Below are positions 24,151-27,100 of a stretch of 64,000 nt of DNA, one piece after another. This stretch comes from Candidatus Norongarragalinales archaeon. GTDB taxonomy: Archaea > Micrarchaeota > Micrarchaeia > Norongarragalinales > Norongarragalinaceae. A program made the position numbers. The DNA lies in assembly GCA_038884755.1 (NCBI GenBank), contig JAWABJ010000001.1, positions 224,001 to 288,000 on the forward strand, given 5' to 3'. Each line of letters opens with the position of its first letter. Positions within the stretch are counted from its first letter, which is position 1.

Positions 24151-27100
24151 CTATTAATGCATGGCGCGTTCGCTTTTAACCGTTTTGTTGTGCGCCTAAA
24201 ATTTTTGCGGTAGCGCGGGCTTGGCTTCCTGCGGCTTGCTTCCGCCACCGAACAGGTTTTTGAAAAAACGCATTATTCCAGCGAAAAAGCTTTTCTTTTC
24301 GGCGGGAGTCTGCACTTCCTCTCCTGTTATTTGAGCGGCGAGGTTTTTGAGCGAGCGGGCGAATTTGCTTGACGGGAACGCGAGGGAAACGGGCTTTTGC
24401 AGGGAAGACGCTTTCCTGACTTCCAGGTCTTCGGGCAGCACGCCTAGGTTTTTGAGCTTGAGGATGGTTTCCAGCTCGCGGGATTTTATTTCGTTTTTCT
24501 CGTTCAAAACCATGTTCAAGACGAAGCCGTCGATCTTCACGTTGTTTTTCTCGGCGAGAATCTGGACTTTCAGCGCGTCGGCGAGGGAAATCGGTTCGGG
24601 CGTGAGGACGAGAATCATTTCTTTGGCGGAAGTGATTGCGGCAAGCGCGTCTTCGCCCAATCCCGGCGGGCAGTCTATCAAGACGTAATCGTAAATTTCC
24701 TCGAGTTTTTTCACCGAGCGCTTGAGCACGGAGTAGTTCAGGCTGTCGCTTTCGGCTGAAATGCTGGACGGAACGTATTTCAGTCCCGCGGGCCCTTCGT
24801 AAACTGCTTCGGTAATCGCGTTTTCCTCGCGCAGGACGTTATTGAGGGAAATGGGCGTCTTGTCCACTCCAATCATGAGCCCGATGTTTGCCATTTGCAC
24901 GTCCGCGTCTACTATGACCACTCTTTTTCCGGATTGCGCGAGGAGTATGCCCATGTTTAGGGTTATCGTGCTTTTTCCCACGCCGCCTTTTCCCGACGCG
25001 AAAACCAGGCTGGTCATTCGGAAGCCAATCCCCCCATCTTGTATTTCTTGAGCAGTTGTTCCCTGCTTTCCGGCTTTTCTCCCGCTTGCTGGGCCGTCAG
25101 TTGTTGTTCGAATAGCGGCGAGAATTCCTTGACGCTCGTGCTTTCAAGCTGCTTTTGGTCGGGAACGAAAATCATCTTTTGGTTTACTGCCAGCACGAGT
25201 TCCACTTGTTCGGGTGTTAGTTCAACCACGTCCATGACGCCCGTCGTCGCAGCAGCCGCGTTGAGGATGCGTTGGAACGCTTCCGGACCTTGGAATTCCT
25301 TGTCGTGCTTGTAGTATTCGTAAGCGCACCCGACTATTTTTCCCGAGTCGAACAGCACGGTCCCTTCCTCGAATCCACCCGTGCCTTTTATGCACAAAGC
25401 GACGTATCCGCTGAAGTTCTTGCGCTGCAGTTGCACCAGCGCCTTCAAAAAATCAACGTTGCTGACGTCCACGTTTTTGTTGAGCATTTTTCCCGAAGGT
25501 AGGCTGAGCATTTTTTTTTTCACTCCCGCAAGTCAATAACTATGTCCGCGGTGTTTCGCAATGCCGTTGAAAAGTCGGGTTCGAGCCCCACGACTATGGT
25601 TTCCTTGCCGTGTTCCTTCGCTTTTGCCAAGAGTGGCTTGAAGTCGCTGTCGCGCGAGACTATTGCAATCGATTCTATGCTGTCGTTGAAAATCGCTTCC
25701 GACGCTTCCACCGCCAACGCAACATCAACGTCGCTCGGAACTATCGTTACGTCGAAACCTTGGTTTGTCACGGCTTCGATGAGCTTGTCCGAGGCGTACT
25801 GGTCGAGCATGACGCGCGCGACTTTTATTTGCCCGTACTTGGACAGTTTTTTCTTTATTTTGTCCAAGTCTACTCCCAACTCTTTGCGCAGTATGTTGGG
25901 CCCGTCGACGAAGCAAGCGATGTTTTTCTTGTGCTCTTTCTTTAGGGCTTCCTTCATCTTGTCTAGAAAGCTGGACATGGATAACCAACCTCAAGCCGTT
26001 CCGGCTTTGGCGATTTTCTTGAAGTTTTCGTATATGCTTAACTCGACTTCCTTTAAAGGCATTTTCTTTATTTCTGCCAAACGCTCGTACGAAACTATGA
26101 CGTTGGCTGGCTCGTTGCGTTCGCTGGAGTTCAAGCCGTACGGTGAGTCGGTTTCCAAGAGCATCCGCTCGAGAGGTGCGTTGCGGAAGATTTTCTTTTG
26201 CTCCTTGCTCTTGAACGTGGGCACGCTTACGTAGCACCCGACGTCGATTGCTTTGGTCAAGAGCTTGGCTTCGAGCCAGAAATGCAAAACACGGGGCATA
26301 GTGTAGGATGAAATGATGTCGATTACTTCAGCTTCCGCCTTGCGCGTATGCATTACGACGGGCTTTCCGAGCTTTTGGGCTAATTCCAGTTGCATTATGA
26401 ACACTTTCTCTTGCGCTTTGTGCTGTGAATGGTATTTGAAGTGGTGGAAGTCCATGCCTATTTCGCCTATTGCAATAGCCTTGCTTGCGTTTTGCTCGAT
26501 GAATTCCAATTCCTTCTCCAAATCGGCGTTGGGCACATCGTGCGGGCTCAAGCCTATTGCCGCGCGAAGGGATTTCGGGTGTTGCGCCATTTGCTCCAAC
26601 GCCTTTTTGTTTCCGGCCATGTTGAAGCCGGTGTTAACCGCAATGACGTTCTTTTCGAGCATCCGCTCTACCACTTTCACTATGCCTTTGGAGAAAGCCT
26701 CGTGGTTCAAGTGCGCGTGAAAGTCGACGAACATTTTCTATAATCTCTCGCTTTACTATTTGAATTGTTCGAGAGCCAGTTTCAACCTTCCTTCGTGAAA
26801 CTGTAGTTTGGGTTCGACTATTACTCCGTGCGTTTCCGCAAGTTCGTCGATAAAGTTCATGTCTTCTTCTGCATGGGTCATTATTTCCAGGTATTGCAAG
26901 TAACGCATTCGTTCAGTTTCCCAAACTCCCTTTATTTGCTCTTCGTTTCTTTTACTGCGCTTAGCCAGTTCTTCTTTCTTTTCCTCGGGGATTAAATTAT
27001 TTTTTAATTCCTCTGCTTGTTTCTTTAATTCCTCTCGAAATGTGGCGGGAAGCAAAGAGTCCATCCTGACGGAATGAAAATCGTTTCGGTATAATATTCC

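What a model noticed while it worked through the whole genome (the two positions that open the first line are those of the whole stretch)
24196..25511. DUF2226, an archaea-only protein of unmatched fold, is the fixed partner of a membrane-binding MinD ATPase
A 165-aa DUF2226 protein (g00287) overlaps by 4 nt the start of a MinD/ParA-type ATPase (g00286) that ends in an amphipathic membrane-targeting helix, and the pair is kept in every relative looked at. I read DUF2226 as the missing regulator or cargo adaptor of this archaeal MinD, doing the job that MinE/MinC do in bacteria. New would be a first partner protein, with a fold not matched in solved structures, for the poorly understood archaeal MinD systems.
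Evidence so far: g00287 C1 249014-249511(-), g00286 248196-249017(-), C-terminus ...SFFAGIMRFFKNLFGG. neighbours.tsv: DUF2226 within 2 genes of ParA/CbiA/AAA_31 in 157 of 295-297 genomes that bear both (53%), 43-44 of 67 in the order; DUF2226 in 291 of 10117 archaeal genomes, share 0.000 in bacteria, within Micrarchaeota only in this order (47 of 47). Homologue in 24 of 25 relatives; in 19 of 19 fetched loci the MinD gene is the next gene downstream. Complex prediction g00286+g00287: ipSAE 0.41, 0.42, 0.41, best of 3 controls 0.00, verdict 'weak support'; runs share at least 49% of contacts, partner pLDDT at least 78; in the tool's calibration 51 of 78 solved complexes and 2 of 108 mismatched pairs reach the [...]
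(Added by a program. Inside this text positions count along the whole contig: contig position 224,001 is position 1 of the stretch shown here. "Call 12" and the like, gene names such as g00115 and contig names such as C1 are that model's own, and its searches are not shown. The text may have been shortened before it was handed on; [...] marks where a part breaks off. The agent that wrote the report below was given it as the finding of a first reader that could run no searches.)

Follow-up and report, generated by a model that had tools for sequence, protein, structure and literature searches.

The report
PATAN-like partner gene of archaeal MinD
In this small-genome archaeon a membrane-binding MinD positioning ATPase is kept or lost together with a small protein that is a distant cousin of a bacterial cell-polarity adaptor domain, which makes it a good but untested candidate for MinD's partner, not a new archaea-only fold.

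Summary
The gene pair is real: DUF2226 (25014-25511) overlaps an archaeal MinD (24196-25017) by 4 nt. MinD is next in 28 of 29 relative loci and within two genes in 46 of 50 Iainarchaeota loci. Other Micrarchaeota lack DUF2226 (0 of 133) and this MinD, and 8 of 25 of their loci keep TatD-NYN-LSM with just the pair missing, so it is a two-gene unit, not part of an RNA module.

'Archaea-only' and 'first partner' fail. The core is a distant PATAN (DUF4388) relative whose bacterial homologues precede mglB-mglA (17 of 17 related loci). In 39 of 50 Iainarchaeota loci a Roadblock-fold gene follows DUF2226. A MinD partner candidate (HVO_0596) is already published. No solved structure matched.

Best reading: a PATAN-type adaptor of a MinD positioning module, cargo most likely a type IV pilus motor; binding and cargo are inferred. 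This genome also has the Dip division-positioning operon, which weakens a MinCDE-like role. The complex predictor was unavailable. The scan already noted this module in other genomes.

The parts
25014..25511 (-). DUF2226 gene, 165 aa (an in-frame GTG 12 nt upstream would give 169 aa and overlap the NYN stop by 4 nt)
   Evidence: single copy in the genome
25164..25511 (-). PATAN-like core, residues 1-116: strand-helix-four strands-helix-strand-helix, no helical insertion
   Evidence: AF2 model pLDDT 89.4, pTM 0.77; DUF4388 links
25023..25142 (-). conserved C-terminal tail, residues 124-163: short helices with FSxxFE and LLKKY[KG][LI] motifs; absent from the bacterial tandem homologues
   Evidence: loose tail motif in 59 of 79 sequences; the tail profile hits none of the six tandem DUF4388-type proteins
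25014..25017 (-). 4-nt ATGA overlap of the DUF2226 stop with the MinD start (translational coupling inferred)
   Evidence: sequence
24196..25017 (-). archaeal MinD ATPase, 273 aa; closest solved structure 1HYQ MinD-1 (E 1.4e-53)
24970..24996 (-). deviant Walker A motif with signature lysine K10 (residues 8-16)
   Evidence: S8 G9 K10 G11 G12 G14 invariant in 27 aligned MinDs
24247..24291 (-). amphipathic membrane-targeting helix, residues 243-257, followed by a non-conserved tail
   Evidence: moment 0.70, rank 1 of 169 windows; same position is the best tail window in 23 of 27 MinDs
25520..25978 (-). NYN-domain nuclease gene, host cluster, separable from the pair
   Evidence: seen upstream in 20 of 29 relative loci; kept without the pair outside the order
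25991..26734 (-). TatD DNase gene, host cluster
23893..24123 (-). LSM (Sm-like) gene, host cluster; present with or without the pair
   Evidence: 60 of 61 phylum genomes

Best explanation
DUF2226 is an archaeal PATAN-type adaptor dedicated to this MinD. Shown: the two genes are coupled, travel as a unit, and the MinD has intact ATPase motifs and a membrane-targeting helix. From established MinD biology: ATP-bound MinD dimerises and binds the membrane through that helix. Inferred: DUF2226 binds the MinD (core or LLKKY tail) and links it to a membrane machine that has to be placed or counted, most likely a type IV pilus motor; in Iainarchaeota a Roadblock subunit joins as the likely switch regulator, giving a PATAN-Roadblock-NTPase module like bacterial PATAN-MglB-MglA with MinD in place of MglA. 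My odds: dedicated functional partner 0.8, direct binding 0.6, pilus motor as cargo 0.4.
For: MinD next in 28 of 29 order loci; within two genes in 46 of 50 Iainarchaeota loci, where DUF2226 is in 60 of 61 genomes. Co-absence: DUF2226 0 of 133 other Micrarchaeota; MinD at E<=1e-30 in only 2 of 57, both 32-33% identical like the second paralogue; TatD-NYN directly before LSM in 8 of 25 loci from four families. PATAN kinship: 13 of 39 aligned members hit PF14332 (best E 0.00097); P0063 and P0208 pass both family cut-offs on overlapping residues; profile-profile E 1.2e-4; top three Atlas clusters PatA_N. Bacterial homologue precedes mglB-mglA in 17 of 17 loci. Intervening Iainarchaeota protein is Roadblock fold (Z 13.5; MglB Z 11.9). 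Literature (passages): PATAN binds PilB1 and PilC (10.1101/2021.06.11.447907); arCOG00589 MinD-like ATPases and Roadblock genes are tied to archaeal pili loci (PMC4858521). Genome has 5 secretion/pilus ATPases, no archaellin hit.
Against: No physical evidence of binding was obtained here. No pilus gene lies next to the pair in any locus where I identified the neighbours. Pilus ATPases (22 of 22) and FtsZ-family genes (22 of 22) persist in sampled genomes of other orders, which lack the pair, so gene content names no cargo. The co-absence may be one ancestral loss. The query itself does not hit PF14332, HHalign probability is only 54.7%, and the core profile misses 18 of 18 canonical DUF4388 proteins. 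The 17 bacterial loci are 79-97% alike, one lineage. Anabaena PatA binds divisome parts, so PATAN does not fix the cargo. The published MinD2 neighbour HVO_0596 has no deletion phenotype.
Confidence: 0.5

Rival explanations
1. The pair is a Min-like division-site selector: MinD binds the membrane and DUF2226 acts as the MinC-like FtsZ inhibitor or MinE-like activator.
For: Four FtsZ-family genes and no MinE hit in the genome. Iainarchaeota have DUF2226 (60 of 61) but no DipB hit (0 of 61); M. jannaschii has DUF2226 (control) and Methanococci lack Dip (PMC13228585). PatA interacts with divisome components.
Against: This genome has DipA-DipB-DipC at C1:112921-114347 and DipB is in 16 of 18 genomes of the order. 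None of the four Haloferax MinDs acts directly in division. Most other Micrarchaeota sampled lack both systems yet keep FtsZ genes.
Confidence: 0.2
2. DUF2226 alone is the ATPase activator (MinE-like) that releases MinD from the membrane, and cargo is bound by MinD itself or by another protein.
For: The pair is sufficient in the whole order: the Iainarchaeota Roadblock is in 0 of 61 genomes and no PF03259 hit in this genome; 11 of 50 Iainarchaeota loci also lack it next door. The conserved basic helical tail could serve as a contact helix (inference).
Against: No sequence or fold likeness to MinE was listed. Known PATAN domains act as output adaptors, not NTPase activators; in Mgl modules the activator is the Roadblock protein (recalled; 6h5b title 'its GAP MglB'). 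A second MinD in the genome has no such partner.
Confidence: 0.17
3. The genes are only co-transcribed, or belong to an RNA-handling module with NYN, TatD and LSM; DUF2226 does not act with MinD.
For: LSM follows MinD in 26 of 26 order loci with room; covariation and tree likeness of DUF2226 with MinD are no higher than with LSM or NYN.
Against: The RNA genes stay, closed up, where the pair is missing (8 of 25 loci; LSM 56 of 57); NYN is not seen upstream in 9 of 29 order loci while the pair stays (two of these have short flanks).
Confidence: 0.13

Closest known systems
PATAN / PatA_N / DUF4388 domain (PF14332; cyanobacterial PatA, PixE; deltaproteobacterial proteins)
   Same: Same helix-strands-helix pattern with the G-x-L/GxIYFxxG/GEEA-type motifs aligned over 59 columns; family overlap in P0063 and P0208; shared neighbours Roadblock and an NTPase.
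   Different: The query is below the PF14332 threshold, has an N-terminal LPxG strand and a C-terminal LLKKY tail, no receiver domain and no alpha-clip insertion, and is coupled to a MinD ATPase.
MglA-MglB polarity module with neighbouring PATAN genes (PMC4316618 passages)
   Same: Gene grammar PATAN - Roadblock - NTPase; the bacterial homologue of DUF2226 sits in such an operon (17 of 17); the Iainarchaeota middle gene has the MglB fold.
   Different: The NTPase is a membrane-binding MinD ATPase, not a Ras-like GTPase; this order has no such Roadblock gene (0 of 61).
Bacterial MinCDE
   Same: MinD with deviant Walker A and membrane-targeting helix, small partner gene in the same operon.
   Different: No MinE hit; partner is unrelated to MinC or MinE in the searches run; a separate Dip operon is present.
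Haloferax volcanii MinD2 with HVO_0596, and MinD4 (PMC11588486 passages)
   Same: Archaeal MinD co-transcribed with a conserved unknown protein predicted to bind it; role in placing surface machines.
   Different: PF09987 does not ring in H. volcanii (control); whether HVO_0596 is a remote PATAN was not tested; partner lies downstream there; no archaellin hit here.

Membership tests
Archaeal MinD (TIGR01969) | HMM cut-off | tested here: met
   243.5 bits vs 201.75
Archaeal MinD (TIGR01969) | deviant Walker A with signature Lys; switch aspartates | tested here: met
   K10, D37, D39, D115, D147 at least 90% conserved
Archaeal MinD (TIGR01969) | C-terminal amphipathic membrane-targeting helix | tested here: met
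   computed only: rank 1 of 169 windows; 23 of 27 MinDs
Archaeal MinD (TIGR01969) | ATP-dependent dimerisation and membrane binding | not testable with these tools
   needs biochemistry
DUF2226 (PF09987) | gathering score | tested here: met
   52.9 vs 22 bits
PATAN / DUF4388 (PF14332) | gathering score on the protein itself | tested here: not met
   no PF14332 hit for the query; so filed as a distant relative, not a member
PATAN / DUF4388 (PF14332) | homology at family level | tested here: met
   13 of 39 weak hits; P0063 and P0208 pass both cut-offs on overlapping residues; P0207, P0217, P0219 found by the query pass PF14332
PATAN / DUF4388 (PF14332) | direct profile match to canonical members | tested here: inconclusive
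   HHalign E 1.2e-4, probability 54.7%, template Neff 1.9; core HMM misses 18 of 18 canonical proteins; Atlas 0.84-0.85, lead level
PATAN / DUF4388 (PF14332) | same three-dimensional fold | not testable with these tools
   no solved PATAN structure turned up and models cannot be compared with each other here
PATAN / DUF4388 (PF14332) | association with Roadblock / MglA genes | tested here: met
   in relatives: 39 of 50 Iainarchaeota loci, 17 of 17 bacterial loci; not in this window
MglA-MglB module | Ras-like MglA GTPase next to the Roadblock/PATAN genes | tested here: not met
   the adjacent NTPase is MinD
MglA-MglB module | Roadblock (MglB) gene | tested here: not met
   none found in this genome or 61 of the order (genomes incomplete); met in Iainarchaeota
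MinCDE | MinE gene | tested here: not met
   PF03776 no hit, controls rang in 4 bacteria; genome 93% complete
MinCDE | MinC gene | not tested
   no MinC family search was run
MinCDE | partner has MinC or MinE fold | tested here: inconclusive
   neither listed; absence from such lists excludes nothing

The most novel reading that the evidence does not exclude
DPANN archaea run an MglAB-style polarity switch rewired onto a MinD ATPase: a PATAN adaptor (DUF2226) plus, ancestrally, a Roadblock activator drive a membrane-bound MinD cycle that places pili or the division plane; this order shows the minimal two-protein form, and Iainarchaeota, which show no DipB, may use it to position FtsZ.
Probability: 0.3. 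Interest if true: 0.75.

Novelty: new variant of a known kind. Interest (0 to 1): 0.5.

Why it matters
Archaeal MinD proteins oscillate and place surface machines without MinC or MinE, and what regulates them is open. This pair names a concrete candidate, ties a DUF to the PATAN family, and links MinD-type ATPases with the PATAN-Roadblock grammar known from MglA GTPases. It is directly testable: the MinD is close to a solved archaeal MinD-1 (1HYQ), both proteins are small and soluble by prediction, and a PATAN-type structure would be the first of its kind among the solved structures searched.

Tried and rejected
Inter-protein covariation on 73 pairs: maximum Z 6.5, 3.7 cells per 10,000 above Z 5, no higher than controls DUF-LSM 5.1, DUF-NYN 3.7, MinD-LSM 4.3, MinD-NYN 3.6; distance correlation 0.48 vs 0.52-0.82: underpowered, no verdict. 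Fold searches of the DUF2226 model: no match at E<=0.001 in PDB or BFVD; best VIA Z 5.6 to acetolactate decarboxylase, then PPC proteins at 4.0-4.5, rejected as common arrangement; the tail was barely tested. Sequence searches of PDB gave nothing. HHalign of the Iainarchaeota middle protein against seven MglB-type proteins failed (E 0.55) and Pfam named nothing; only the fold search settled it. My idea that the pair replaces Dip was rejected: both are present in this order. No RNA holder listed. Methanococcal context could not be fetched (one search found nothing), plasmid searches were blank. The sigma-70 promoter scan is not suited to archaea and was at chance level. No other protein of the genome clearly shares the core or tail.

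Full report
Observation. The window holds, on the minus strand, TatD (25991-26734), NYN (25520-25978), DUF2226 (25014-25511), MinD (24196-25017) and LSM (23893-24123). DUF2226 scores 52.9 bits against a cut-off of 22 and is single copy. Its stop overlaps the MinD start by 4 nt. A second MinD with a similar helix lies at C1:531096-531905 without DUF2226. Homologue names point to Micrarchaeota, probably Norongarragalinales (inference).

Conservation of the pair. DUF2226 is in 55 of 61 genomes of the order. In the 29 best-scoring relative loci MinD is next in 28, one locus being cut. In a phylum sample it is in 18 of 18 own-order and 0 of 133 other genomes; this MinD at E<=1e-30 is in 4 of 4 own-order and 2 of 57 others, both at paralogue-level identity. 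In the phylum of a record titled Iainarchaeum DUF2226 is in 60 of 61 genomes. Of 50 loci (the 30 best plus 20 weaker ones that I chose), 11 have MinD next and 39 have a roughly 155-aa gene next; MinD is within two genes in 46, three genes away in one, and out of view in three. That middle protein has the Roadblock fold: model pLDDT 80, Foldseek E 3.9e-5 to p14 and 1.6e-4 to MglB, Z 13.5, rmsd 3.1 over 109 residues to 3kye and Z 11.9 to MglB. It was not found in 61 genomes of the own order.

Is it an RNA module? LSM follows MinD in 26 of 26 order loci with room, so adjacency alone cannot decide. But LSM is in 56 of 57 genomes outside the order, and of 25 such LSM loci examined (26 fetched, one left out as unpublished) none has DUF2226 or MinD, while 8, from four families, read TatD-NYN-LSM with nothing between. 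Because Iainarchaeota share NYN-DUF2226-(Roadblock)-MinD-LSM, loss of the pair as a unit is the simplest reading; it may be a single event. One unpublished genome (G087) is among the non-order counts; no claim depends on it.

What DUF2226 is. The model (pLDDT 89.4, pTM 0.77) has a mixed core in residues 1-116 and a tail of short helices. But the family grades into PATAN/DUF4388: 13 of 39 members hit PF14332 weakly; P0063 and the Theionarchaea protein P0208 pass both cut-offs on overlapping residues; the query finds tandem-domain proteins at E 1.5e-6 to 6.5e-5 among 1.8 billion that pass PF14332; the top three named Atlas clusters for the core are bacterial PatA_N. One tandem protein lies directly before Roadblock and small-GTPase genes in 17 of 17 closely related metagenome loci, beside CheW and receiver-DUF4388 genes; a neighbour's homologue is named Syntrophobacterales. 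Against: the query itself has no PF14332 hit, HHalign gives only 54.7%, and the core profile misses 18 of 18 canonical DUF4388 proteins. I therefore call it a distant PATAN relative (about 0.85), not a PF14332 member.

Literature. I saw passages only, unless stated. 10.1101/2021.06.11.447907: PATAN equals DUF4388, binds PilB1 and PilC, PatA binds divisome parts, MglA/B genes are regular neighbours. PMC4316618: MglA and MglB genes near PATAN genes. PMC11580455: two PATAN proteins among Myxococcus candidates. PMC11588486: HVO_0596 predicted to bind MinD2, deletion without phenotype. PMC13228585 (abstract, introduction, first results section, passages): DipABC positions the divisome, Haloferax MinDs do not, Dip absent from Methanococci and Thermococci. 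PMC4858521 and PMC13705601: MinD-like ATPases and Roadblock genes tied to archaeal pili loci. Makarova 2006 was seen only as a citation. 'DUF2226' gave 0 papers; searches listed nothing describing this pair. No supplement was read; tables of PMC4858521 and PMC11588486 could bear on priority.

Mechanism. Shown: coupling, joint presence and absence, intact MinD motifs. Established for MinD: ATP-driven dimer on the membrane. Inferred: DUF2226 binds MinD and links it to cargo. The genome has five pilus/secretion ATPases, four FtsZ-family genes, no archaellin or MinE hit, and a DipA-DipB-DipC operon whose DipA has the same Walker A as the published one (that PF09846 OapB is the DUF2073 of the preprint is recalled). 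With Dip present, a pilus motor is the likelier cargo here. Yet Iainarchaeota show no DipB (0 of 61) and few archaellins (3 of 41), so a division role there stays open; and pilus ATPases and FtsZ persist in 22 of 22 sampled genomes of other orders, so the pair is essential for neither.

Novelty. A known grammar (PATAN-Roadblock-NTPase) with a different engine, not found in print by the searches named. The scan noted the same module in other genomes; I had reached the PATAN and Roadblock readings before seeing those notes. New here are the Roadblock-free form across a whole order, the clean loss of the pair from TatD-NYN-LSM, and the coexistence with Dip. Verdict: real, new variant of a known kind, interest 0.5.

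Noticed in passing
G000:C1:112921-114347 (outside the window; L119): DipA-DipB-DipC (OapABC) operon; DipB in 16 of 18 genomes of the order and 5 of 133 other Micrarchaeota, a phylum that the passages of PMC13228585 do not name.
   Followed up: partly
G000:C1:531096-531905 (L003): Second MinD-like ATPase with a C-terminal amphipathic helix, among large surface-protein genes, no DUF2226; similar paralogues occur in G061, G066, G009.
   Followed up: partly
L033:5001-6035 and 16 related loci: Bacterial tandem PATAN-like protein with a C-terminal extra domain, overlapping mglB by 1 nt, in an operon with receiver-DUF4388, MglA, CheW and a second Roadblock-like gene.
   Followed up: partly
L077:1996-2460 and 38 other Iainarchaeota loci: Roadblock-fold protein with an N-terminal amphipathic-looking helix and no Pfam family.
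   Followed up: yes
L021:796-1278 (G026): DUF2226 appears in two pieces, a frameshift or assembly error.
   Followed up: no
L111 (G223): MinD open frame of 657 aa, more than twice the usual length; possible fusion or long tail.
   Followed up: no
P0192, P0194, P0208: Archaeal proteins with two or three tandem DUF2226 cores (Methanotorris, Theionarchaea), mirroring the bacterial tandem form.
   Followed up: partly
window 18100-19047 and 19142-19969 (+): Two adjacent membrane-anchored proteins with weak ThuA/GATase-like domain hits and similar N-termini; homologues lie near the same cluster in L065.
   Followed up: no
window 26756-27385 (-) and 20039-20752 (+): Two ORFs without a significant Pfam hit; the second looks kinase-like by eye (HGHPYGN, KFIDS).
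   Followed up: no
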